From a virus, in the IMG/VR virus record IMGVR_UViG_3300034166_000560: a stretch of DNA of 64,000 nt, one strand, 5' to 3'. The notes below the pieces were generated by a model that had not been told where the DNA came from, searched no databases, and saw only the letters and a program-made list of their open reading frames with translations. The translations under genes and the position numbers were made by a program. Shown piece by piece: positions 3,215 to 57,873 of the stretch; positions within the stretch are counted from its first letter, which is position 1, and every line of letters starts with the position of its first letter.

Positions 3215-3588
3215 TGGCAGACCTAGAATTCAGACAAGCTAAAATCGAAGATGCTATAACTAAACTTACTGAGATCTCTGCAGACCTCAACAAGATGGTT
3301 GCAGTGCACGAACTACGTATAACTCAACAAGAGAAAATGACCGATAGCATCGAGATCATTCTTGAAAAAAGAAGAGATGAAGTAGAAGCTAAAGAAGAAG
3401 CTATTTACGAAACTATTGAAAAAGAAAAAAATGAATTCACTAGAAAAATGGATGAATCTTTTGAAAGCGTTTCGAAAAAGATAGATGCTCTTGAGAAGAT
3501 GATGTGGGTGTATGGTGGTGGATTTGCTCTTGCTGCATTCATTATCGCAAACTGGGGCGATGTAGCCAAACTTCTCCTAAAAAATTAA
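3214..3588 (+). CDS. Coiled-coil protein with C-terminal transmembrane helix
   Basis: Heptad-rich body; hydrophobic WVYGGGFALAAFIIANW. Confidence 0.55.
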   Translation: MADLEFRQAKIEDAITKLTEISADLNKMVAVHELRITQQEKMTDSIEIILEKRRDEVEAKEEAIYETIEKEKNEFTRKMDESFESVSKKIDALEKMMWVYGGGFALAAFIIANWGDVAKLLLKN

Positions 3589-3589
3589 T

Positions 3590-3617
3590 TTGTCTTTTTT
3601 GAAAAACCCAGTATAAT
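3590..3617 (+). promoter_or_regulatory. Sigma70-type promoter for primase
   Basis: TTGTCT-16nt-TATAAT. Confidence 0.5.
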
Positions 3618-3646: not shown

Positions 3647-4672
3647 ATGGATTGGCTTGTTCACAAGTATATTGGTATTGTTTCTACACGTCTAGAGAAA
3701 TTCAAACGTAAAAGTTCGAACCTTTACAATTTCCGTTGCCCTATCTGCGGAGATTCAGAATCACATCAAAATAAAGCACGAGGATACATCTACCAGAAAG
3801 ACGGTAAGATGATGTTCCATTGTCATAATTGTAATGCGACGATGGGTATTCCAAACTTCATTAAGATGCTAGACGTCAACCTATATAATGAATATCAGCT
3901 GGAGAGGCTGCAGGATAAAAAGCCTCCAGAACAAGATGAATACGAAAAGTTCGTTGAGAAGATGCGTAAGCCAGTGTTTATGACATCTGGTCCATTGAAA
4001 GGTCTTAAGAAGGTTAGCCAACTTTCTCCTGATCATCCTATTAAGAAATTCGTAGTTGAGAGAAAGATCCCTAATGTTTACCATGCCAAGTTATTCGCAT
4101 GTCCTAATTTTAAGCATTATGTTAATAATTTGGTTCCCAACAAGTTTCCAGTTGAGTCTTTGGCTCGGGATGAGACAAGGTTGCTTATCCCTTTTCTGGA
4201 TTCTGATAAGAGCGTGCATGCCTTCCAAGGTAGATCCCTCAAATCGTCTAATGGAATTAAATATATTACAATTATACTTAATGAGTCAGTACCTAAACTT
4301 TATGGCTTGGACACTGTGGATCGTAACCGTATTATACCAGTCCTTGAAGGTCCGATTGATAGTATGTTCGTTCCTAATAGTATTGCTACTGCTGGAGGTG
4401 ATCTGGTTAGCGCAATTAGAGATTTTGACAAATCAGGACTTACGATCGTATATGACAACGAGCCTCGGTCTGTAGAGACTAAAAAGAAACTTGACAAAGC
4501 TATCATGAATGGTTATAATGTCTGTATTTGGCCGGAAACAATGGAACACAAAGACGTTAATGATATGGTCCTAGCAGGATTATCTCCGGAGTTTATCGAA
4601 CATATTATTAAAACGAATACATATAGAGATTTGTCAGCGAAACTGGCATTACAGAAATGGAGTAAGGTATGA
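3647..4672 (+). CDS. 61: DNA primase (T4 gp61-like)
   Basis: Zn ribbon NFRCPICGDS...FHCHNC; TOPRIM EGPIDSMF, YDNEPR, KDVNDM. ATG at 3647 preferred over TTG at 3623. Confidence 0.95.
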   Translation: MDWLVHKYIGIVSTRLEKFKRKSSNLYNFRCPICGDSESHQNKARGYIYQKDGKMMFHCHNCNATMGIPNFIKMLDVNLYNEYQLERLQDKKPPEQDEYEKFVEKMRKPVFMTSGPLKGLKKVSQLSPDHPIKKFVVERKIPNVYHAKLFACPNFKHYVNNLVPNKFPVESLARDETRLLIPFLDSDKSVHAFQGRSLKSSNGIKYITIILNESVPKLYGLDTVDRNRIIPVLEGPIDSMFVPNSIATAGGDLVSAIRDFDKSGLTIVYDNEPRSVETKKKLDKAIMNGYNVCIWPETMEHKDVNDMVLAGLSPEFIEHIIKTNTYRDLSAKLALQKWSKV

Positions 4673-5282: not shown

Positions 5283-5907
5283 ATGATCAAGGTTAAAGGA
5301 TATGTCATCTGCATGCCCAGCAGCGTTTGGGCCAAGAGCGATGACAAGTTTCCGTGGATTCCTCGTGAACATTCTTTTGGTAAGACTGCAACAGAAGCAT
5401 GGATTCGATTTATGAATATTCATCCTAATGATTATGAATGGGATAGGAAACAGACATATTGGATCGATCGTGGTTATTGCGTAAAAGAAGCTACATTGGA
5501 GATTAAAATATGAACAAGATTGATATAGCATATGTAGTTAGAAATGAATTGCATCGACTTGAAAAGTATGAGAAGCTGGTTCAGTTCATCGCTAATGATT
5601 ATCATGAACTGTCGCACGACAAAGCACAATGGCAACGTGACGATTGGAAGAAGCGTTGTAAGAAACTGATAGAGGAAGATAACAAATGACTATGACTTGG
5701 AGAGGAATGGACCTCAACTATGTTAGCAAAGACGTTGCTAACCGTTTCTTTGGTGACGTTATTAATATGTCAAGAGAAGAACTTGTAAAGCAGATTGTGG
5801 AATCGCCCATATATAATCTTCTTCCTAAAGATACTGCTGAAAAACTCAAGTATGAGAGAGTGATTGAATTTCTTGATATGAAGAAAAAACTGGAAGAAGC
5901 ACGATGA
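5283..5907 (+). CDS. Run of small hypothetical ORFs (5283-5513, 5510-5689, 5686-5907)
   Basis: Translationally coupled ATGA overlaps. Confidence 0.5.
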
Positions 5908-23248: not shown

Positions 23249-24251
23249 GTAAGTCAGCATTAAAGAAGTTCAAGAAGAATGATTATTCAGACCGTGACGA
23301 GTATCATGATGATCCTCGTGAACGTGAGAACAAGCGCAAGGCAAAGCGTGAACAACGTGCGCTAAAGACAAAAGATATTTCTTCTCTTGTCGAGGAAGAT
23401 TATGAATCTGGTGATGATTACCAGTTTATTTGGAATCAGGAAACTGACTAATGCCTATCTATAAGCTACGCAATACGCAGACTGAAGAAGAATGGGAAGA
23501 GCTAATTTCTATCTCTGAGATGGAACAGAAGTTAGCCGATCATCCTCATGTCGAACTTCTTATCAATGGAGCACCTATGGTTACTGGAACCATGGGAAAG
23601 AACACTCCCATGAAGACTAAGTATAAGGACTCTACTTCAGTAAAGAAACCTGTTCTAGATGCTACAAGTTATTCAGGAAACTAAATCAATGGATCCTTTA
23701 CAGTTTTGTTATTGGCTGCAAGGTTTTGCAGAATTAAACAGTGGCACACCACCAAACGATATGCAGTGGAAAGCTATTAGAGATCATCTAGCAACAGTCT
23801 TTAATAAGGTTACTCCATCATATCCTGGACTTGGTCCTGATTGGCAAAAGGAAATCATTAAAGATTGGAAGCCTAATCCAAGTTCTGCTCCAGAAAATCC
23901 ATATCCAAATAGAATAAATTTGCCACCTGTTTGGTATGGTCCAAATGTATCGCCTCCAACTACCCCATATACGGTTACTTGTAATAACTCAACAATGAGT
24001 ATTTGCTAATGCCTACATATAAGTTTTTAAATAATGAGACTGGCGAAGAATATGAGGACTTCATGAGCATCAGTGCACTTGAAGTTTACCTTGAAGAGAA
24101 TCCAAATGTAACACAACTCGTAAATGGCGCTCCTATGATCCATTCTGGCAGAGGCATGGGTAAACCCGATCAGGGTTTCCGTGATCTGCTTAAACATATG
24201 AAGAAGGGAAACCAAAAAGGTATTTCGAGGAGCACTATTAACACATTCTAG
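23245..24251 (+). CDS. Small hypothetical ORFs incl. two paralogous FmdB-like proteins (23451-23684, 24009-24251)
   Basis: Both paralogs MP.YK..N..T.EE.E...SIS..E..L...P.V..L.NGAPM. Confidence 0.55.
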
Positions 24252-25031: not shown

Positions 25032-25775
25032 GTGTCAAAAGATAAAAAGAAAAGTTATCGTTCGATCTTTATATCTGATGTGCACCTTGGAACCCGTCAC
25101 TCTAACGCAAAATTGTTATTAGAATTTTTAAAAGAAACAGAAGCCGACAGATATTATCTTGTTGGTGATATCATTGATGGCTGGATGATGCGCAAAAACG
25201 TTTACTGGCCACAAGAACATAACGAAGTCGTGCAATTCTTTTTAAAACAGTCAAAGAAATCTGTTGAAGTTATTTTTGTCATAGGTAACCATGATGAGTT
25301 CCTTCGTGAATATTCGGGAACCGAGATGGGTAATATTAAACTGGTTAACGAAGTAATACATCATGGAGAAAATAATAAAAAATATCTAGTCATACATGGC
25401 GATCAGTTCGACCTTGTCACTAAAAACGCAAGATGGTTAGCATATATTGGCGGCTGGATGTATGATCGAATGATTGACATAAACCGTTATTTACAATGGG
25501 TTTATAATGCTCTTAACATAAATGGTTTCTCTCTATCTGCTTGGGCGAAATCTAATGTCAAAGAAGCAGTAAACTTCATTGGAGACTACGAAAAGGTAGT
25601 TGCCGATGCAGCCAAAAGGAGATGCGTCGATGGGGTTATTTGCGGTCATATACATTCTGTTAATATATCTACTATTGATGGTATTGAATACGTAAACTGC
25701 GGTGACTGGGTGGAATCCTGCACTGCCATTGTTGAACATTACAATGGTAAATTTGAGATCATAAGGAAACTATAA
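25032..25775 (+). CDS. PlcP/LpxH-like metallophosphoesterase
   Basis: SDVHLG, GDIIDGW, YWPQEHN, GNHDEFLR, HGDQFD, CGHIH, NCGDWVESCTA. Confidence 0.8.
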   Translation: MSKDKKKSYRSIFISDVHLGTRHSNAKLLLEFLKETEADRYYLVGDIIDGWMMRKNVYWPQEHNEVVQFFLKQSKKSVEVIFVIGNHDEFLREYSGTEMGNIKLVNEVIHHGENNKKYLVIHGDQFDLVTKNARWLAYIGGWMYDRMIDINRYLQWVYNALNINGFSLSAWAKSNVKEAVNFIGDYEKVVADAAKRRCVDGVICGHIHSVNISTIDGIEYVNCGDWVESCTAIVEHYNGKFEIIRKL

Positions 25776-28508: not shown

Positions 28509-29055
28509 CTGAGTATCCTAGATTACGAAAGTCTCGGGCGTAGATCTTTCGAACCATATCCACGCTTTCCGAATCATAATCATTATTATACTCTTCTTTT
28601 GAATAAGAGCCAACGTTTATTTTTGGTATACGAATGTTTAGATCTACCTCGAGCTCCCAGAGCTCTTCGTATCTGTAGATCTTATCCATCTCTGTTATAT
28701 CTTCTTCAAAGATATAAAAAGATTGATCGTATTTCATAAGAGGAGTTTTCTCGGTAACTTCTCCTACCATAATCATGGACAAAAAGTTTTTAAAAGATAT
28801 TTGTATTTGATTGAATCGCAAAAAATGATGATAATAACTATACGCTCTTGTGAAGGGATTTCTTACGACAGAGAACTTGAAGACTTCTGGAGTAATGTTA
28901 TTATTAAGTTTGAGAACATGATAAGGATCGTGACCGATATGCCATGTTCTTAACCATGGTTGTTCTCTAAGTTGAGACCTGATAGCGATGCCACCAGTCT
29001 TAGGTATATGAACAAAGAGAAGAGGGGGAAGATCCCCCTCTACATTAGTAATCAT
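28495..29055 (-). CDS. Sulfotransferase-family protein
   Basis: FVHIPKTGG; VRNPF.RAYS.Y. Confidence 0.8.
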   Translation of the reverse strand: MITNVEGDLPPLLFVHIPKTGGIAIRSQLREQPWLRTWHIGHDPYHVLKLNNNITPEVFKFSVVRNPFTRAYSYYHHFLRFNQIQISFKNFLSMIMVGEVTEKTPLMKYDQSFYIFEEDITEMDKIYRYEELWELEVDLNIRIPKINVGSYSKEEYNNDYDSESVDMVRKIYARDFRNLGYSDEFS

Positions 29056-30469
29056 AACGCTCGTTCATGATAGTGTCGAGCATAATCGATTCGGGAGTAA
29101 AGGTCTCTACGTTAGCCAAACCCTTCACCAGTGCTGGCGAGAATCCAGAAACAAGAGCAACTCCAGAAGTATCATACTTCACAGGCTGATTACCATACGC
29201 AGCATTTAGATTCCAGAACACGATCTTTGGTAGATCATAACCAGCATCCTGATACTTACGAGCAATCATCTGTAATGCGCTATCGTCGAAACGAGTGCAC
29301 TGGTTGAACTGCATGTCTGATAGAATAAGCAGCATGTCAGGCATTTCTTCCTGAGGCACATTACCCTTCTTAGCTACATCAAGAACCTTATCCAGAGCAC
29401 GGTGCAGATCAGTAGACATAGCCCACTTAGACTGAACCATCTGCTGGCACTTCTGAACGATATTACCGTTTAGGTGCAGCAACTGTGGGTTGTCGCTGAA
29501 AGTCAAGAAGGTATCCTTGAACGCTCCAGTGTTCTTGTCTGCAAGATACAGACCAAGAGACACAGCAACGTCAATGCAAGTAGTACCACTCTTTGAGTTG
29601 TATCCACCAGCAGGAGTGGTCATTGAACCAGAAACGTCAACCAAAGGTAGGATACGGGCATCCCCAACGAAGTTAGGAAGAGCATCCCACTGAGCCTGAA
29701 GATGTCCAAGTTCAGTGGCATCATAGTCGTTTGACCAACGATATGAACATAGACCCTTTAGAACATCGTAAGGATACACAGCACCAGCGTTCACCTTTAC
29801 GCCAGCTTCGCCCTTTACGAGCTTCTGAACATACTCAGCAAACTTTACAGAGTGCTTGTTGAATGCCTTCTTGTAACGAGAAGCAGCAAGAGAAGGAACC
29901 TTGTTGTAGTCGATCTCTTCCCACTGCTTTGCGCACATCTGAGTTTCAACAACGTTGGTTAGATTAACCAAAGTCTTACGATACTGCTTTGGAGTCATAC
30001 CAAGGAATGCACGTAGCTCTGCAGCCACTTCACCCTTACGAGGCATCCACTTAGCAACTAGACCAGCAGTATTCTGGTTAGACAATCCTTCACGGATAAA
30101 CTCGAACGCTTCCTTACGGACATCGCCCTTTGCAGTTAGGAGATCATCCCAACGACCAAGTTCCGGAACCTTATGCACGATACGAGCAGCAAGTGCAGGA
30201 TCGTTGTCGCATAGGTACTGGAAAATATCACGGAAGATCTTACGTTCACCAGATCCACCACGAGCATCACGTGCCCATAGAGCAATACGAGTTGCAAGTT
30301 CCTTGTTGGTAACATATGCAGCTACGAAAGCAGGGATGATATCCTTACCACGAGAAGCACCAATGTTGAAGTATAGATCAACTAGCGGAGACGCAGTTGA
30401 CTTCAGAGCCTTCATACCATTTTCAGTACGTGCTTCCTGATTCTTCACGGCATTAACAAAAGTAGACAT
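29045..30469 (-). CDS. TROVE/Ro60-like (DUF2828-type) helical + vWA protein
   Basis: TENG, RDARGG.GE, GRWDD, AKWMPR helical region; vWA MIDAS VDVSGSM, ILSDMQF, IVFWNL, VSGFS. Confidence 0.8.
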   Translation of the reverse strand: MSTFVNAVKNQEARTENGMKALKSTASPLVDLYFNIGASRGKDIIPAFVAAYVTNKELATRIALWARDARGGSGERKIFRDIFQYLCDNDPALAARIVHKVPELGRWDDLLTAKGDVRKEAFEFIREGLSNQNTAGLVAKWMPRKGEVAAELRAFLGMTPKQYRKTLVNLTNVVETQMCAKQWEEIDYNKVPSLAASRYKKAFNKHSVKFAEYVQKLVKGEAGVKVNAGAVYPYDVLKGLCSYRWSNDYDATELGHLQAQWDALPNFVGDARILPLVDVSGSMTTPAGGYNSKSGTTCIDVAVSLGLYLADKNTGAFKDTFLTFSDNPQLLHLNGNIVQKCQQMVQSKWAMSTDLHRALDKVLDVAKKGNVPQEEMPDMLLILSDMQFNQCTRFDDSALQMIARKYQDAGYDLPKIVFWNLNAAYGNQPVKYDTSGVALVSGFSPALVKGLANVETFTPESIMLDTIMNERYDY

Positions 30470-30487
30470 TTCACTTTCCTTTTCTAC

Positions 30488-30546
30488 AGATTGAACTTTG
30501 AGTCAAATTATCAGTTTGATTTTCATTGGATTGCTGAACTCAATCT
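30488..30546 (-). ncRNA. Array unit 1: Y-like scaffold with Ile-GAU anticodon stem-loop
   Basis: AGATTGA/TCAATCT closing stem, GTTCAGCAA, TCAAA-CTGATAA-TTTGA. Confidence 0.75.
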
Positions 30547-30555
30547 AAAATTAAC

Positions 30556-30664
30556 AGGATAGATTTTACGTGCTCTACCGACTGAGCTACTCCCCCATAG
30601 GGAAGGTGGGGCTCGAACCCACGACCACGGCTGTGTAAAAGCAAAACATTGCGGAAACTATCCT
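30556..30664 (-). ncRNA. Array unit 2: Y-like scaffold with circularly permuted tRNA-Val(UAC)
   Basis: AGGATAG/CTATCCT stem, TTTCCGCAA, then anticodon loop, T arm, closed acceptor stem and D arm. Confidence 0.85.
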
Positions 30665-30680
30665 AAAACTCTATATTACT

Positions 30681-30708
30681 ATTATACTACACTTTGCTTA
30701 GAAGTCAA
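30681..30708 (-). promoter_or_regulatory. Sigma70-type promoter inside the array
   Basis: TTGACT-16nt-TATAAT upstream of units 2, 1 and the TROVE-like gene. Confidence 0.7.
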
Positions 30709-30719
30709 GCAAAAATAAC

Positions 30720-30785
30720 AGGATAACATCTTTCTTCGATTACAAGTCGAGTGCTTATTCAGCGATGGTTTGCTGTAGTTATCCT
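30720..30785 (-). ncRNA. Array unit 3: scaffold with D-like arm and Thr-UGU anticodon stem-loop
   Basis: AGGATAAC/GTTATCCT, TACAGCAA, GCT-GAATA-AGC-A-CTCGA-CTTGTAA-TCGAA. Confidence 0.75.
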
Positions 30786-30794
30786 AGAACTAAC

Positions 30795-30845
30795 GGGATC
30801 AACTTGGCTTGTTTGTGAGCAACAGTTGAATGCTGAACTGATCCC
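30795..30845 (-). ncRNA. Array unit 4: minimal scaffold with small hairpin
   Basis: GGGATCA/TGATCCC, GTTCAGCAT, loop containing CTCACAA. Confidence 0.7.
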
Positions 30846-30860
30846 AAAACTTTATACAAC

Positions 30861-30967
30861 AGGATATATTTTTTAGCTCCATGGCTATTAACCACGATAG
30901 GATTTGAACCTATTATCTTCTGTAATAATACAGATGCTTCGACCGAAGTGTTTGCTGAAAATATCCT
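30861..30967 (-). ncRNA. Array unit 5: scaffold with tRNA body permuted at the D loop
   Basis: AGGATAT/ATATCCT, TTTCAGCAA, TCTGT/ACAGA arm, ATAGG-TTCAAAT-CCTAT, CGTGGTT-AAT-AGCCATG. Confidence 0.75.
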
Positions 30968-30977
30968 AAAACTAAAC

Positions 30978-31178
30978 TGGATGGTTGAAGGAATTTTTAT
31001 TATTGTTCTGGAGAGACCGATTAACTCGTACGAGTATATCCTTCAACTCTCCCTATCTAATGATTCTCACTAGCAATATTTTCTCTCACCGTAGTGGAGA
31101 AACTCTCTGAACAGTAAGAACCAAAGTTCTTACATCGGAGGAGCCTTACGACTCCGAGTGGTTTGCTGTATCCATCCA
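30978..31178 (-). ncRNA. Array unit 6: scaffold with 200-nt multi-hairpin cargo
   Basis: TGGATGG/CCATCCA, ATACAGCAA, GNRA and UNCG hairpins. Confidence 0.65.
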
Positions 31179-31187
31179 CAATAAAAC

Positions 31188-31242
31188 AGGATCAACTTGC
31201 ATTTTTCGTTCAAAGAAAAGTAGTTATTGCTGAACTGATCCT
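31188..31242 (-). ncRNA. Array unit 7: scaffold with Ser-UGA-like anticodon stem-loop
   Basis: AGGATCA/TGATCCT, GTTCAGCAA, TTTTC-TTTGAAC-GAAAA. Confidence 0.7.
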
Positions 31243-31248
31243 AAAATT

Positions 31249-31323
31249 TGGAGCGGGCGACCAGAATCGAACTGGCGACCAACAGTTTGGAAGACTGTGA
31301 CTCTACCCCTGAGTTACACCCGC
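31249..31323 (-). tRNA. tRNA-Gly(UCC)
   Basis: Cloverleaf, loop CTTCCAA, CCA. Confidence 0.95.
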
Positions 31324-31523
31324 AAACCCCATTTAATTTTCAACCAAATCCTTTCATGAATATAATAATCTATACTAAGAAGAAGATGAAGTATTGTAGC
31401 AAATCCTGTAGACTTGCCAATGTCACCAGTAAAAACGAAAGTCCAGAATATCGTAAACACCCATGCGGTTAAACGATAACTAATCATTCTTACTACTGTA
31501 CGTTTATGAGTTTCTTGTATCAT
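31314..31523 (-). CDS. DUF2061-like small membrane protein
   Basis: ETHKRTVVR.ISYR...YYIHERIW. Confidence 0.7.
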   Translation of the reverse strand: MIQETHKRTVVRMISYRLTAWVFTIFWTFVFTGDIGKSTGFATILHLLLSIDYYIHERIWLKIKWGLRV

Positions 31524-36404: not shown

Positions 36405-36480
36405 TGGATGCGATGCGTTGGAATTGCACCAACTTCTACTGGTTTATGAGACCAGCGAGATACTATACCTCCCGCCCGCA
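36405..36480 (-). tRNA. Atypical tRNA with CAU anticodon
   Basis: CTGGT-CTCATAA-ACCAG; bulged acceptor; T loop TGCAATT. Confidence 0.7.
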
Positions 36481-36562
36481 AAACTCGCTGTCCCTCACGC
36501 CTTGGGACGAATGTTGTCTAGTATTACGACACTCCATAAAGGCTGTGTATCTAGATCAAACC

Positions 36563-36637
36563 TGGTGCTGATAGTTGGAATCAAACCAACCTTTAAAGCC
36601 TTATGAGGACTCCTCGACATCTTGCCGACCTACCAGC
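36563..36637 (-). tRNA. Atypical tRNA with CAU anticodon
   Basis: GAGTC-CTCATAA-GGCTT; D loop lacks GG; T loop TTTGATT; CCA. Confidence 0.7.
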
Positions 36638-36779
36638 GAAATAGCTTCCCTGTTATTATAGAGGTATCGGGACCCTCTACTGGTAAACACCTCGACAGAC
36701 CTAGGAACCATCGATTAGCAGTCCAGCGAAAAATAGAGTCAGGGCACAAATTGTGTCATACATCCCCGACTCATTAAAT

Positions 36780-37330: not shown

Positions 37331-37422
37331 TGGTAGGGGATCCCGGATTCGAACCGAGTCGAGAACGCTAATCGGGCGCTGAAAGGTTTATAAAACCTCC
37401 CTGTGTACCAACACCATCCCCC
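37331..37422 (-). tRNA. Atypical tRNA with UAU anticodon and long V arm
   Basis: GAGGT-TTTATAA-ACCTT; mini D arm; ~24-nt variable region; TTCGAAT; CCA. Confidence 0.75.
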
Positions 37423-40644: not shown

Positions 40645-41178
40645 GTCAATATTTCTATGATCTGTTTTAATTTTTCAACAGCTGGTTTATATTCTTCGTC
40701 GAGAATTTTTCTCGCATGACGATGATTTTCGTATTCTAATTCTTTAAGATATTTAAATCTAGAATCGACAACAGCCTCTATCACTAACGGAAGTAGATCC
40801 GACATTTTCACAAATGTTTCGCCGTTGCTGAATACTTTGTCACTCATCAACCTCTTCCTTCAAGTTCTCTACGACAATATATTCTGCTTCTTTACTTATC
40901 TGCATATGCTCGTCGAGAATATCCCTGACTTTAATAAGACGATCTTCAATATCAGTAATGGTATTGTGAACCGCCTTATCATTATGACCTTCTTGAAGAT
41001 CGATCAAAGCAGCATTTAAATTTAAATCAGCAGAGTAATCCACTTGCCATTTATGAAACTCTCCGCCTTCATCCATATCTTCCATAAGTTTACATGGAGG
41101 AAATAGAATCTGTTTAATTTGCTCGAGCTTTTCTTCTGCCGGAGTGTTTGGTCTTTTCTCAATTTTAAACGGCCACAT
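40641..41178 (-). CDS. Two hypothetical ORFs (40641-40850, 40840-41178)
   Basis: ORF track, coupled. Confidence 0.5.
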
Positions 41179-48397: not shown

Positions 48398-49770
48398 TAG
48401 AAGAATGACTCCAATGAAGCAGCAGCGTCTTTACCGTATGGATCTTTCATATTATGAGCATGAAGATATTCATACCATTCTTTGTCATCCCACATTCCAG
48501 GAGAGACGCCATTCCATAGTGGACGCTGAAGTGGATGAGCCTTATTCATACGACGTTCTTCGACATATTGTTTACGTAACGCTTCATACTCATAAGACTT
48601 TAGTTCTAGCATCTTCTCACGGAAGTAACAAATTACTGAGATTCTTTCACAAGTAGAATCATCCGGATTGTTAAGAACAATAGGAGTATTACCATGAATG
48701 ATTTCGTGGTTGTTAACAAGGAGCAAATCACCGGGACGAACATTAACAGCAACACGATACTCAGGAAATACGAGATAGCCACCAGTATATTCTCCTGTGC
48801 CTAGAACGAGTAGATTAGAAAGACCAGCATCAAGATCACCAGCGTCTCGATGACAGGCAGTGCGGAAAGTTTTATTAACTGTAATTGTGGTAAATACAGT
48901 TTCTGGTACAAGGAACCGAGGATCTAACTTATCTGCAGCTGCTCGCTGATTACCCCAACGCCAAGGTAGTAATTCCTTGAAACCCTTATTCAGTGATTGG
49001 AGGAATGGGTATGCCAGTTCGAAAAGTTCTGGATGCTTTTCAGTGTATGACGTTGCACGCCCGTAAGGAATGCGAGGGTAACGATCGTACCAACCAGCAA
49101 CACCTGAGAATACGGATTGTGCGTAATTAGTGGCAGAAGCCCACTTTTCTGCGACCATTCTTGCTTCGGCATGAATTTCCTCCTGTGGTTTATTACTTAG
49201 GCCATCCACCCATTTATCAAACCAATCATGATATTCTGGATAAACCTTTGTTACCTCTGAACGCAACCAAACAACACCACGTGTTTCTTCAGCACCTTTT
49301 GGACCACCGTTTTTATATTTTTCTCTGATGGATTCGATTGATGTATCATCAATAAGAGATGCACCATCATTCATAAGGAACTCTAGTATCTCCATCTGAT
49401 ATGGAGTAACCCAATCTCTACCACCACGGCTTTGCGCTGCAAGCATTTCACCACGAGGACCAGCAGCATGGCCACGATTCTGGCTTTCAGTCGCAGCTTC
49501 TCTCAAGCCACGATAAGCCATATCCTGTTCTTCTTGACTGAAATAGTTTTTACGAAACTTGAAAGCAATACGCAATTCGTCATTGCCCTTTTCACAAGTA
49601 TCGCAAGCAGCCATACCACACTCAGCTTTTTCGAGAGGATCGCAGAGCGGGGGCATATAACAATCAGTGTCTTCTTCGATTAGAATATCGTAATTACTTT
49701 CATCGACAAACTGACCCAGAAGATGTTCGCAATCAATTTTATTCTTGGCGACAATACGTCTTACCATCAC
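48397..49770 (-). CDS. TET/JBP-family 2OG-Fe(II) dioxygenase
   Basis: FTTITVN..FRTACHRDAGD, HGNT, ERISVICYFRE. Confidence 0.75.
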   Translation of the reverse strand: MMVRRIVAKNKIDCEHLLGQFVDESNYDILIEEDTDCYMPPLCDPLEKAECGMAACDTCEKGNDELRIAFKFRKNYFSQEEQDMAYRGLREAATESQNRGHAAGPRGEMLAAQSRGGRDWVTPYQMEILEFLMNDGASLIDDTSIESIREKYKNGGPKGAEETRGVVWLRSEVTKVYPEYHDWFDKWVDGLSNKPQEEIHAEARMVAEKWASATNYAQSVFSGVAGWYDRYPRIPYGRATSYTEKHPELFELAYPFLQSLNKGFKELLPWRWGNQRAAADKLDPRFLVPETVFTTITVNKTFRTACHRDAGDLDAGLSNLLVLGTGEYTGGYLVFPEYRVAVNVRPGDLLLVNNHEIIHGNTPIVLNNPDDSTCERISVICYFREKMLELKSYEYEALRKQYVEERRMNKAHPLQRPLWNGVSPGMWDDKEWYEYLHAHNMKDPYGKDAAASLESFF

Positions 49771-54787: not shown

Positions 54788-55339
54788 TCATTCTTCATTT
54801 TCTTCTACCTCTGAAAATTTCTCAACTCCAACTAGCTTACTAGGTTTTTTGCTTTTTGTCAACTTATCTTCAAACGACCTAACAACATCAGCTGAATACT
54901 CATTAGATTTCAATTGAGTAGCATGTCCTTCTTCTTGCATTTCAGAGAAGATAAAGCTGTTCTCAAAATTCTTCATCTTGATATAAGTCTGTTTCTTTTC
55001 TTTTTGAATGCGACGAAGGAAAGCGTTCCATGCAATCTGGGTAAAATATGCGAACGGATTGTTTGTTTTATCAGGATTGAAATTATCAACTGCTGCAATA
55101 CAATCCATAATGCCATCGCTGATCATATCGGATTTATAAGTGTATCCAGAGAAGTTTGGCTTCTTGGCAAGGTTGTTACAAATCAAAAGAATAGACTCTC
55201 CGATATATTTCGGAACGATAGGTTCTTCTTTTCCTGCAGCCACGGCTTCTTTCAATTCATTTTTATAATGAATCATAGCTCCGTAGAGAGTCTTGTTGTT
55301 GATATAATTTGTTTTTCTTTTTGGCTTCTTTACTTCCAT
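54788..55339 (-). CDS. 55: Late-transcription sigma factor
   Basis: NYINN, YIGE, PNFSGY, MISDG, NPFAYFTQI..NAFLRRI.KEK. Confidence 0.95.
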   Translation of the reverse strand: MEVKKPKRKTNYINNKTLYGAMIHYKNELKEAVAAGKEEPIVPKYIGESILLICNNLAKKPNFSGYTYKSDMISDGIMDCIAAVDNFNPDKTNNPFAYFTQIAWNAFLRRIQKEKKQTYIKMKNFENSFIFSEMQEEGHATQLKSNEYSADVVRSFEDKLTKSKKPSKLVGVEKFSEVEENEE

Positions 55340-56880: not shown

Positions 56881-57287
56881 TCAATTGCATTACGAATGAT
56901 ATAATTTCTATTCATAACAAGTTTAATGATTGATTCAAGTAGTTCTATTTTTTCTTGCTGTAATCCAACTTTCAAGGTAATGTTAATGATATCATCATCA
57001 GCATCAAGATACATAGGAATATCGCCTTTAAGGACCATTCCTCTTGCTGGTAATCTCCAGCCTTTATCTTTTGTCTCTTCGTTTGGACCTTGCGTTAAAA
57101 ATTCGTATTTGTCTAGCTTGAGTTGTTTTAACTCTGCTTCGTATTTGCGAAGAGTTAATCTTTCTTTAACTAGAATTTGAAAATATTTATGGTGGAGTTT
57201 AGGGGTGTCTAAAGAAGCATCCCCTAGCTCGGTCTTATCGACCTGAGTGTCTTTTTCCCACTGCTCAAAAATTTCATCAATCTTCAT
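56853..57287 (-). CDS. uvsY: Recombination mediator UvsY
   Basis: W.KD..D...PKLH.KY...R.Y.I.NAIDW.KF..G. Confidence 0.9.
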   Translation of the reverse strand: MKIDEIFEQWEKDTQVDKTELGDASLDTPKLHHKYFQILVKERLTLRKYEAELKQLKLDKYEFLTQGPNEETKDKGWRLPARGMVLKGDIPMYLDADDDIINITLKVGLQQEKIELLESIIKLVMNRNYIIRNAIDWQKFTMGA

Positions 57288-57351: not shown

Positions 57352-57873
57352 TTATACGTTATTAATGTCGTAATAAGTATATTTAAATGTAGCAGACGCT
57401 TCGATATAATTAACATCGTCGTCCGTTGTATTGAAAACTGCACCAGTCAAACTTGTTGGATGTGCATCTGTGAATACGATTTCATAATTAGCCATTTTTG
57501 TAGAAGAAAGAACCATAAGAGAAATATCCGAAGTTTCGCCATCTCCTGTATAAGAAGGGTTTTCTCTGATAGCCTTTCTTTCAACAAAATCTTTAGGCTT
57601 ACCAAGAGCCTTCATCCAATTATGAAGCTCTAGATAATTTTGTAGATCTTCGTCGACCTTAAAAGTAATATTAAGTAAACCGTAATCTAAGTGATCCCCA
57701 ATTTGCGGTATAACGACCATTGGGTTTGATGTGATAACAGGCTTTAAACTTAGGTCTGGTATATTAACTTTCTGAATAAAGAAGTTGACATGCGGTGCTT
57801 TCTTAATCGTGAACTTGAAATTCAGAGGACTTAGAAAGTTTTTATTAGATGGTGTGTTATCTATCGCTGTCAT
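57352..57873 (-). CDS. 3: Tail tube terminator (gp3-like)
   Basis: NFLSP..F.F, NIP, L.ITF.VDEDL.NY, A.ATF.Y; late promoter at 57890-57897. Confidence 0.8.
   Translation of the reverse strand: MTAIDNTPSNKNFLSPLNFKFTIKKAPHVNFFIQKVNIPDLSLKPVITSNPMVVIPQIGDHLDYGLLNITFKVDEDLQNYLELHNWMKALGKPKDFVERKAIRENPSYTGDGETSDISLMVLSSTKMANYEIVFTDAHPTSLTGAVFNTTDDDVNYIEASATFKYTYYDINNV

What the first reader, a model, noticed from the sequence alone, without database searches (positions are those of the whole stretch)
30488..31242. Units 1, 3 and 7 display isolated anticodon stem-loops (Ile-GAU, Thr-UGU, Ser-UGA)
SEEN: unit 1 has TCAAA-CTGATAA-TTTGA (30503-30519). Unit 3 has CTCGA-CTTGTAA-TCGAA (30735-30751), preceded by a mini D-arm GCT-GAATA-AGC-A. 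Unit 7 has TTTTC-TTTGAAC-GAAAA (31203-31219). All have 7-nt loops with Y32-U33 and A37. The loops of units 1 and 3 are identical to those of the phage's tRNA-Ile(GAU) and tRNA-Thr(UGU), but the stems are different, so the loops appear selected rather than simply copied. Unit 4 contains CTCACAA (Val-CAC-like) but its register is imperfect. INFERENCE: a panel of anticodon baits with no acceptor end, as expected for sponges of anticodon nucleases, modifying enzymes or synthetases.
Basis: partly seen in the sequence, partly recalled or inferred. Interest (0 to 1): 0.82.

Follow-up and report, generated by a model that had tools for sequence, protein, structure and literature searches.

The report
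Anticodon-arm mimics on phage Y-like RNAs
Two, possibly three, of seven small RNA genes in front of a phage Ro60-like protein gene carry only a copy of a tRNA anticodon arm, a design that recurs in many phages and may bait proteins that read anticodon loops.

Summary
The three hairpins exist at the stated coordinates, on the minus strand.

**Observation**
- Units 1 and 3 have 7-nt loops identical to the phage's own tRNA-Ile(GAU) and tRNA-Thr(UGU) loops, on unrelated stems.
- Unit 7 fits the YU-NNN-R pattern but matches no real tRNA loop, and its likely counterparts have an 8-nt loop. It is weak.

**Context**
- The hairpins are the cargo of three of seven tandem RNAs.
- Each RNA has a covarying 7-bp closing stem, a CAGCAA box and a 3' GU(U).
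- The array lies directly upstream of a DUF2828/vWA gene whose model matches Ro60 structures.

**Comparative evidence**
- 88 of 93 related lineages have such arrays, and 34 carry mini anticodon arms.
- Of 141 short units, 51 have a YU-NNN-R-N loop (about 1 expected) and 40 have a loop identical to a real tRNA loop (0.2 expected).
- Positions 32, 33, 37 and 38 are kept, the triplet varies and the stems covary.
- The same cargo occurs in cultured Vibrio, Campylobacter and Mycobacterium phages.

**Verdict**
- Anticodon-loop mimicry under selection is supported.
- A decoy or tether role is plausible but untested.
- The scan has already noted this handle-plus-Ro60-like system on other genomes.
- I found no paper describing anticodon-arm-only cargo.

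The parts
30485..30550 (-). Unit 1, the last unit before the gene: handle (7-bp closing stem extendable to 10 bp, CAGCAA box, 3' GUA) plus cargo hairpin 30503-30519 with loop CUGAUAA (Ile-GAU type)
   Evidence: model R1 67.6 bits
30553..30669 (-). Unit 2: same handle with a circularly permuted tRNA-like body (T arm, sealed acceptor hairpin, D arm) and a UUUACAC loop equal to the phage tRNA-Val(UAC) loop
   Evidence: Rfam YrlA RF02553 42 bits, E 1.6e-7, below the gathering score of 69
30681..30708 (-). Sigma-70-like promoter (TTGACT, 16 nt, TATAAT; 11 of 12 matches) between units 3 and 2
30717..30789 (-). Unit 3: handle plus D-like mini hairpin (30752-30763) and anticodon-arm hairpin 30735-30751 with loop CUUGUAA (Thr-UGU type)
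   Evidence: R1 52.8 bits
30792..30849 (-). Unit 4: handle with short cargo and no convincing anticodon-like hairpin
   Evidence: R1 40.8 bits although it was not in the training set
30858..30972 (-). Unit 5: handle with a second tRNA-like body (T arm present)
   Evidence: z = -3.96
30976..31184 (-). Unit 6: handle with a roughly 180-nt non-tRNA structured cargo
31185..31246 (-). Unit 7, the first unit after tRNA-Gly: handle plus hairpin 31203-31219 with loop UUUGAAC; its anticodon-like status is weak
   Evidence: R1 59.3 bits
29045..30469 (-). Ro60-like protein gene (474 aa; DUF2828 + DUF7788/vWA; phrog_850), the presumed protein partner of the handle
   Evidence: Foldseek top 13 PDB hits are all Ro60
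31249..31323 (-). tRNA-Gly(UCC) directly upstream of the array, preceded by a promoter-like site at 31393-31420

Best explanation
The hairpins are anticodon-arm mimics carried as the variable cargo of Y-RNA-like small RNAs.

**Anatomy.** Seven such RNAs are encoded in tandem on the minus strand. They lie between tRNA-Gly and a Ro60-like (DUF2828/vWA) gene. Each has a conserved handle:
- a U-rich leader;
- a 7-bp closing stem whose last two pairs covary;
- three bases followed by CAGCAA;
- an A-rich 3' strand;
- a 3' stem half followed by GU(U).

**Inferred steps.**
- The handle binds the Ro60-like ring protein, as Y RNAs bind Ro60.
- The cargo projects from the particle.
- In units 1 and 3 (less surely unit 7) the cargo has been reduced to a 4-5 bp stem and a 7-nt loop that copies a real tRNA anticodon loop.
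- This presents the loop to a protein that reads anticodon loops, such as an anticodon nuclease of a host defence system or a loop-modifying enzyme.
- That protein is then sequestered, or is tethered to the Ro-like particle.

**Shown here.** The anatomy, the conservation, the covariation, the link to the gene, and the Ro60-like fold.

**Not shown here.** RNA expression and processing, protein binding, and the bait function.
For: **Handle and stem**
- The seven stem halves are complementary unit by unit, including the two variable pairs.
- RNAalifold on 49 units gives 7 closing pairs, 6 of them with compensatory changes.

**Link to the gene**
- 88 of 93 lineages (90% protein-identity clusters) have arrays. 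In 83 the last unit ends within 60 nt of the start codon.
- Unit density is 2.5 per kb upstream of the gene and 0.36 per kb on the opposite strand.
- The same handle lies beside DUF2828 genes in cultured Klebsiella, Vibrio, Campylobacter, Mycobacterium, Listeria, Bacillus, Staphylococcus, Enterococcus and Synechococcus phages.

**Protein**
- The model's 13 best PDB matches are all Ro60, full length, E 2e-8 to 1e-5.

**Anticodon mimicry**
- Among 141 short units, 79 have a 7-nt-loop hairpin (20 expected). 51 fit YU-NNN-R-N (1.0 expected). 40 equal a real phage tRNA loop (0.2 expected).
- CUUGUAA sits on at least 6 different covarying stems, always preceded by GCA as in tRNA.
- Positions 32, 33, 37 and 38 are near-invariant and positions 34-36 vary.
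- Independent cases are Vibrio BUCT194 (CUGCUAA, CUUCUAA), Campylobacter F357 (CUGAUAA) and Mycobacterium Lumos (CUGCUAA).

**Precedents from papers**
- Phage Ro60 binds two upstream Y-like RNAs (PMC12135203).
- A Ro60-like homolog in phage Bas63 counters a defence system (PMC11482910).
- tRNA-Thr(UGU) and tRNA-Lys(UUU) are prime targets of the PARIS nuclease AriB (PMC12409363).
Against: - There is no expression, processing or binding data.
- The hairpins are weak. They have AU-rich 4-5 bp stems, the folds of units 1 and 7 are no more stable than shuffles, and in unit 3 the arm is absent from the minimum-energy fold.
- The displayed triplets are dominated by UGU and UGA. This could mean one specific ligand for a CUUGWAA loop rather than a panel of tRNA baits.
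- 59 of 93 lineages with enough upstream sequence show no mini anticodon arm under the strict criteria.
- No RtcB or RNA ligase gene was found in the 90-kb record, so there is no local link to tRNA damage. The record is only 54% complete, and the Rnl1 search was uninformative because its control found nothing in any genome.
- The units used for the covariation count were chosen for having a hairpin, so the percentage of paired cells is biased upward.
Confidence: 0.5

Rival explanations
1. Reduction relics. The cargo descends from tRNA-like cargo. The anticodon arm is merely what is left, serving as a spacer or stabilising hairpin for the handle, with no ligand of its own.
For: - Clear descent is visible. 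The mini arms keep the GCA of the D stem and position 26.
- Unit 3 keeps a D-like stub.
- Full tRNA-like cargo with the same loops exists in relatives.
- Cargo turns over fast between close relatives.
Against: - Relics would decay in the loop as fast as in the stem. Instead the stems change with compensation while the 7-nt loops stay identical to real tRNA loops (40 observed, 0.2 expected).
- Positions 32, 33, 37 and 38 are near-invariant.
- The same design recurs in phages of unrelated hosts.
Confidence: 0.15
2. Cis-regulation. The last unit (unit 1 here) is an operator. The Ro60-like protein binds the handle next to its own ribosome-binding site and controls its own translation. The small hairpin only sets the geometry.
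For: - In 83 of 93 lineages the last unit ends within 60 nt of the start codon.
- Mini arms are most often the last unit: 26 of 64 short last units.
Against: - Identical cargo also occurs at positions -2 to -7, as in units 3 and 7 here.
- In Klebsiella KP13-26, Mycobacterium Lumos and the Staphylococcus phage the units lie downstream of the gene.
- This reading does not explain why the loops copy tRNA loops.
Confidence: 0.1
3. RNA-RNA contact. The YUNR-type U-turn loops are kissing loops that pair with a complementary RNA, as in antisense regulators, and do not imitate tRNA for a protein.
For: Every such loop has the U-turn signature (U33 followed by a purine-rich 3' side). This is a general fast-pairing motif (my own knowledge, not tested here).
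Against: - The full 7-nt identity to real anticodon loops, including A37 and A38, is not needed for kissing.
- No complementary partner was identified.
- The triplets vary between close relatives.
Confidence: 0.07
4. Chance. The hairpins are AT-rich sequences that happen to fold into 7-nt loops with U at the second position.
For: - The folding energy of units 1 and 7 is not better than shuffles.
- The YU-NNN-R-N pattern alone is loose. 170 such hairpins occur on the two strands of the window.
Against: - Enrichments of about 50-fold and 200-fold over shuffles in homologous short units.
- Covarying stems.
- Only 8 non-tRNA hairpins with real tRNA loops occur in 128 kb of the window, and 2 of them are in this array.
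Confidence: 0.03

Closest known systems
Bacterial and phage Y RNAs of the YrlA/YrlB type bound by Ro60/Rsr (Chen et al. 2014, PMC4201824; Rfam RF02553), and Yrl1/Yrl2 of Thermus phage phiLo (PMC12135203)
   Same: - Small RNAs encoded beside, and on the same strand as, a Ro60-fold protein gene.
- The 5' and 3' ends form a stem next to a conserved unpaired motif.
- The variable module mimics tRNA. Unit 2 matches the YrlA model over its T, acceptor and D part.
   Different: - The handle motif is CAGCAA after a 7-bp stem, not GNCGAA or CGAA.
- The protein is DUF2828-type, with no sequence-level match to Ro60 in the PDB.
- There are up to 7-9 RNAs per array.
- YrlA mimics the T, D and acceptor arms, whereas units 1 and 3 display only the anticodon arm.
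Phage-encoded tRNA variants that defeat anticodon nucleases (T5 tRNA-Lys, tRNA-Thr and tRNA-Asn against PARIS AriB; PMC11464382, PMC12409363)
   Same: - Phage RNAs carrying the anticodon loops of the tRNAs that defence nucleases attack.
- Thr-UGU and Lys-UUU types are among the commonest cargo loops.
- The AriB paper itself raises possible competition by overexpressed viral tRNAs.
   Different: - Those are complete, decoding tRNAs that replace cleaved host tRNAs.
- The units here have no acceptor or T arm and cannot decode.
- They are attached to a protein-binding handle.
- No nuclease interaction has been tested.
Dictyostelid Class I RNAs (Kjellin et al. 2021, PMC7919456)
   Same: - About 60-nt RNAs with a short stem joining the 5' and 3' ends.
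- A conserved unpaired 11-nt motif next to the 5' stem half.
- A variable remainder.
- A 3' CUGU whose C pairs with a conserved 5' G.
- The phage handle likewise ends ...CCU-GU(U) and starts (A)GG.
   Different: - They are eukaryotic and reported as unique to Dictyostelia.
- The known binding protein is an RRM protein.
- I could not verify the 11-nt motif sequence from the text I could read. I recall it as ending in ACAGCAA, from memory only.
- No tRNA-like cargo is described.

Membership tests
Y RNA (Ro60-associated ncRNA) | Encoded next to, and co-oriented with, a Ro60-family protein gene | tested here: met
   The array ends 16 nt before the start of a gene whose model matches Ro60 structures. 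The linkage holds in 88 of 93 lineages.
Y RNA (Ro60-associated ncRNA) | 5' and 3' ends pair into a stem that carries the protein-binding site, with a variable module beyond it | tested here: met
   A covarying 7-bp closing stem plus the conserved CAGCAA box.
Y RNA (Ro60-associated ncRNA) | Physically bound by the Ro60-type protein | not testable with these tools
   This needs RIP or EMSA. The only precedent is phiLo phiRo60 with Yrl1 and Yrl2 (PMC12135203).
YrlA (Rfam RF02553) | Score at or above the Rfam gathering threshold, with the GNCGAA-type motif near the 5' end | tested here: not met
   Unit 2 scores 42 bits against a gathering score of 69, covering model positions 23-87 only. Units 1, 3 and 7 give no hit at E <= 5. 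The handle motif is CAGCAA.
tRNA | Cloverleaf with acceptor stem, D, anticodon and T arms | tested here: not met
   ARAGORN and the Rfam tRNA model call nothing in units 1, 3 and 7. Only the anticodon arm is present, plus a D-like stub in unit 3.
tRNA anticodon stem-loop (mimic) | 7-nt loop with Y32, U33 and R37 on a roughly 5-bp stem, with the loop sequence equal to a genuine tRNA loop | tested here: met
   Units 1 and 3 show 7 of 7 identity to the phage tRNA-Ile(GAU) and tRNA-Thr(UGU) loops. Unit 7 meets the pattern only. Homologs.
Anticodon-nuclease decoy or sponge | Binds, or is cleaved by, an anticodon nuclease and relieves defence | not testable with these tools
   No assay was possible. 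The support is only circumstantial (the triplet spectrum; PMC12409363).
CRISPR array | Regular repeat-spacer period with near-identical repeats | tested here: not met
   There is no tandem period. Unit spacing runs from 60 to 211 nt, and the repeat copies are 65-85% identical to the reference copy.

The most novel reading that the evidence does not exclude
Phages carry a modular ribonucleoprotein countermeasure. A Ro60-like ring binds a universal RNA handle, and exchangeable cargo, here bare anticodon arms of Thr-UGU, Ile-GAU, Ser-UGA and Lys-UUU type, baits and neutralises the tRNA-cleaving or tRNA-modifying effectors of bacterial immune systems. These would be the first RNA decoys of anticodon nucleases. 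The arm repertoire would then record which host tRNAs are under attack.
Probability: 0.3. Interest if true: 0.85.

Novelty: new variant of a known kind. Interest (0 to 1): 0.66.

Why it matters
Ro60 and Y RNAs are conserved from bacteria to humans, yet what the variable Y RNA module recognises is still largely unknown. YrlA mimics every tRNA arm except the anticodon arm.

Here the opposite design appears. The handle carries only an anticodon arm, the loop is kept letter for letter, and the triplet changes between relatives. This points to a loop-reading partner and makes the question testable.

The same design is present in cultured Campylobacter, Vibrio and Mycobacterium phages. The handle RNAs are also present in a cultured Klebsiella phage.

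tRNA cleavage is now known to be a common phage-defence strategy, and a Ro60-like homolog has been reported to counter a defence system. These RNAs are therefore good candidates for a new class of counter-defence.

Tried and rejected
- **Tandem Repeats Finder** found no array. The units differ too much in length.
- **CRISPR-like reading** was rejected: the spacing is irregular and the repeats are degenerate.
- **Nucleotide search of the array against cultured phages** found only the tRNA-Gly.
- **Sequence search of the protein against the PDB** gave only a weak vWA hit. The fold search was needed.
- **RtcB, Rnl2 and Rnl1 searches** in the 90-kb record were negative. The record is 54% complete, and the Rnl1 control found nothing in any genome, so that search is uninformative.
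- **Model R1 hits elsewhere in the window** lie at 55053-55110, 56916-56975 and 41014-41114. They score 16-25 bits. The first was inspected and lies in coding-looking sequence. I took all three as chance.
- **No handle units** were found next to the homologs of Felix O1, Vibrio Va3, Serratia BF, Sinorhizobium phiN3 or Aeromonas AsFcp_4.
- **AriB motif test.** I tested whether mini arms keep the AriB-type U36-A-A-U39 motif that real phage tRNAs avoid. U39 is present in 10 of 10 UGU and UUU mini arms against about half of real ones. The mini stems are only 26% GC, so composition may explain it, and I treat the result as inconclusive.
- **Dinucleotide-shuffle script.** One script failed to return. 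The statistic was redone with mononucleotide shuffles.
- **Unit finder error.** My finder picked a wrong 3' arm for unit 6 onward.

Full report
**1. What is at the coordinates**

All tRNA genes near the region are on the minus strand, so the region has to be read on that strand.
- Unit 1 (30503-30519): a 5-bp stem with loop CUGAUAA.
- Unit 3 (30735-30751): 4 bp plus a C/A mismatch, with loop CUUGUAA. A 3-bp D-like hairpin (30752-30763) and an A precede it.
- Unit 7 (31203-31219): a 5-bp stem with loop UUUGAAC.

I extracted the anticodon arms of the 25 tRNAs that ARAGORN finds in the window.
- The loops of units 1 and 3 are identical to those of the real tRNA-Ile(GAU) and tRNA-Thr(UGU). The stems are unrelated.
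- Unit 7's loop differs from the real tRNA-Ser(UGA) loop, which is CUUGAAA.
- Unit 4's CUCACAA has no proper stem.

**2. What the hairpins belong to**

The 0.76 kb between tRNA-Gly (31249-31323) and the ORF at 29045-30469 holds seven units. Each unit has these parts, in order:
- a U-rich leader;
- a 7-nt 5' stem half (mostly AGGAU plus two variable bases);
- three bases, then CAGCAA;
- a variable insert;
- the complementary 3' stem half;
- GU(U).

In all seven units the two variable positions of the stem are complementary. This is direct covariation inside one array.

The inserts differ.
- Units 2 and 5 are tRNA-like bodies. Unit 2 matches Rfam YrlA over its T, acceptor and D part (42 bits, E 1.6e-7, below the gathering score of 69).
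- Unit 6 is a long structured insert.
- Unit 4 is short.
- Units 1, 3 and 7 are the small hairpins in question.

Two sigma-70-like promoters on the minus strand precede tRNA-Gly and unit 2. No terminator-like site is present.

**3. The neighbouring protein**

- The 474-aa ORF is DUF2828 plus DUF7788, and phrog_850 'RNA-binding protein'.
- A sequence search of the PDB gives only a weak vWA hit.
- An AlphaFold2 model (mean pLDDT 68) has as its 13 best Foldseek matches only Ro60 structures. These are Thermus phage phiLo phiRo60, Deinococcus Rsr, Xenopus Ro60 and human Ro60. They align over the full length, with E 2e-8 to 1e-5 and TM about 0.5-0.57.
- Homologs in mycobacteriophages are annotated 'Ro-like RNA binding protein'.

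**4. Related arrays**

I fetched about 175 homologous loci from viral and metagenome contigs, with proteins 49-88% identical. I located units with a script.
- The consensus of 331 unique units is U-rich leader, AGGAUnn, nUW, CAGCAA, insert, A-rich strand, nnAUCCU, GUU.
- Units occur at 2.5 per kb upstream of the gene and 0.36 per kb on the opposite strand.
- After clustering proteins at 90% identity, 88 of 93 lineages with enough upstream sequence have an array. In 83 the last unit ends within 60 nt of the start codon.
- RNAalifold on 49 short units recovers the closing stem, with 7 pairs, 6 of them compensatory.

The handle is not limited to this clade. It lies beside the homologous gene in cultured phages of Synechococcus, Klebsiella, Vibrio, Campylobacter, Mycobacterium, Listeria, Bacillus, Staphylococcus, Enterococcus and Fusobacterium. 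I did not find it next to the homologs in Felix O1, Va3, Serratia BF, phiN3 or AsFcp_4.

**5. Are the anticodon-like loops more than chance?**

All 328 unique inserts:
- 7-nt-loop hairpins are enriched: 382 observed against 239 +/- 16 in dinucleotide shuffles.
- YU-NNN-R-N loops number 119 against 15.9 +/- 3.8. This count includes T loops.

The 141 unique short units (insert up to 50 nt, no T arm):

| Feature | Observed | Expected from shuffles |
|---|---|---|
| 7-nt-loop hairpin | 79 | 20.4 |
| YU-NNN-R-N loop that is not a T loop | 51 | 1.0 |
| Loop identical to a real anticodon loop of tRNAs called in the same loci | 40 | 0.2 |

Further evidence:
- The commonest loop, CUUGUAA, sits on at least six different stems that differ by compensatory changes. 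It is always preceded by GCA, the end of a D stem plus position 26.
- A count on the alignment, with the closing stem and the arm helix specified, gives 89.6% of cells paired. The covariation score is 0.593 against 0.177 in shuffles (0 of 500), and slid controls score far lower. The units were chosen for having a hairpin, so only the diversity of pair types counts as independent evidence, not the percentage paired.
- Per lineage, 34 of 88 arrays hold a mini anticodon arm. Across these loops, position 32 is C in 32 and U in 7. Position 33 is U in 39 of 39. Position 37 is A in 39 of 39. Position 38 is A in 29 of 39. Positions 34-36 vary.
- The relative with an 88%-identical protein has, in the same last position and with the same flanks, CUUGAAA where the window has CUGAUAA. 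All three 'anticodon' bases differ and the frame is kept.
- Independent cases in unrelated cultured phages are Vibrio BUCT194 (CUGCUAA and CUUCUAA), Campylobacter F357 (CUGAUAA, the same loop as unit 1) and Mycobacterium Lumos (CUGCUAA).
- Within the window, outside tRNA genes, only 8 hairpins in 128 kb of both strands have a real tRNA loop, and two of them are units 1 and 3.

**6. Limits**

- Unit 7 is weak. Its loop equals no real tRNA loop, and its likely counterparts in close relatives have an 8-nt loop, CUUUGAAC or CUUUCAAC.
- The hairpins are thermodynamically feeble.
  - The arm is in the minimum-energy fold of units 1 and 7, but those folds are no better than shuffles.
  - In unit 3 the minimum-energy fold pairs part of the loop elsewhere.
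- Mini-arm stems are about 26% GC, against about 60-65% in real phage tRNAs.
- The triplets are not an even panel. UGU and UGA occur in 10 lineages each and UUU in 4, with the rest scattered. Position 36 is A or U in 37 of 39 loops.
- No expression data could be obtained.

**7. Origin**

Relatives carry full tRNA-like cargo with the same loops. Some are circularly permuted at positions 26/27, with the acceptor sealed by a loop. Others are acceptor-less bodies in which the handle takes the acceptor's place.

Unit 3 has a D stub, an A and then the anticodon arm. It looks like an acceptor-less body that has lost its T arm. The mini arms elsewhere keep only the GCA.

The arm and its loop are therefore what survives reduction. 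This argues that the loop is the selected part.

**8. Mechanism**

Shown:
- the anatomy, the linkage to the gene, the covariation and the loop conservation;
- the Ro60-like fold.

Inferred by analogy:
- The handle binds the Ro60-like protein. The analogies are Ro60 with Y RNAs (PMC4201824) and phiLo phiRo60 with two upstream Y-like RNAs (PMC12135203).
- The anticodon-arm cargo engages a protein that reads anticodon loops.

Circumstantial support for a counter-defence role:
- The Ro60-like gp130 of the Felix O1-like phage Bas63 counters the Ppl system (PMC11482910).
- tRNA-Thr(UGU) and tRNA-Lys(UUU) are prime targets of the PARIS nuclease AriB, and the authors raise possible competition by viral tRNAs (PMC12409363).

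I put anticodon-arm mimic cargo on a Ro-like-associated handle RNA at about 0.85. I put the bait or tether function at about 0.35-0.45. Together these give 0.5 for the whole statement.

**9. Comparison with what is known**

- The closest known RNAs are YrlA-type Y RNAs. Linkage, architecture and tRNA mimicry are shared.
- Membership of the Rfam family fails on score and on the handle motif.
- YrlA mimics the T, D and acceptor arms, whereas these units display only the anticodon arm.
I could not verify their motif sequence.
- Earlier notes of this scan describe the handle plus Ro60-like system on other genomes and on this genome. I found no paper describing it or the anticodon-arm-only cargo.

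Noticed in passing
window 36409-36475 and about 36560-36640, minus strand: Two odd tRNA-like genes with a CUCAUAA (CAU) loop on 6-bp stems, inside the tRNA cluster. ARAGORN missed both. Rfam tRNA scores the first at 31.8 bits, just above threshold.
   Followed up: partly
L001 (Synechococcus phage BUCT-ZZ01) about 5560-5860: Downstream of the Ro60-like gene lie two tRNA-shaped genes with an intact acceptor stem and CCA. Their anticodon arm is replaced by the handle (3' half, GU, a short loop, 5' half, CUGCAA). This is the circular permutation of window unit 2.
   Followed up: partly
L004 359-409; L016 3123-3182; L180 4131-4191; L190 2164-2222; L187 1832-1886: A second recurrent small cargo: a hairpin whose loop contains AUUGG or AAUGG. 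It is seen in freshwater contigs and in Klebsiella, Listeria and Vibrio phages. It is not anticodon-like and its partner is unknown.
   Followed up: no
L192 (Staphylococcus phage S-CoN_Ph5) 3532-3742: Three handle units lie downstream of the Ro60-like gene. They overlap two tiny ORFs annotated as hypothetical proteins (3519-3608, 3738-3866), which are probably mis-annotated RNA genes.
   Followed up: no
L179 (Serratia phage BF) 819-2078: An annotated RNA ligase gene lies two genes upstream of the Ro60-like homolog. No handle units were detected upstream of that homolog.
   Followed up: no
L180 (Klebsiella phage KP13-26) 3990-4600: A promoter-like site is followed by five handle units in an unannotated gap downstream of the Ro60-like gene, inside a tRNA cluster. 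Two of the units are permuted tRNA-like bodies, one with a CUGCUAA loop. This is a cultured, tractable system.
   Followed up: partly
window 37331-37422, minus strand: ARAGORN calls a 92-nt tRNA-Ile(UAU) with the anticodon at position 31. The length is unusual for a tRNA-Ile gene, and I did not examine it.
   Followed up: no
window 23978-23984 (+), 25128-25134 (-), 48452-48458 (-), 57814-57820 (+): Isolated hairpins whose 7-nt loops equal real tRNA loops (CUUGUAA, CUUUUAA, CUCAUAA, CUUGAAA), away from the array. They have no handle and were used here only as background.
   Followed up: no
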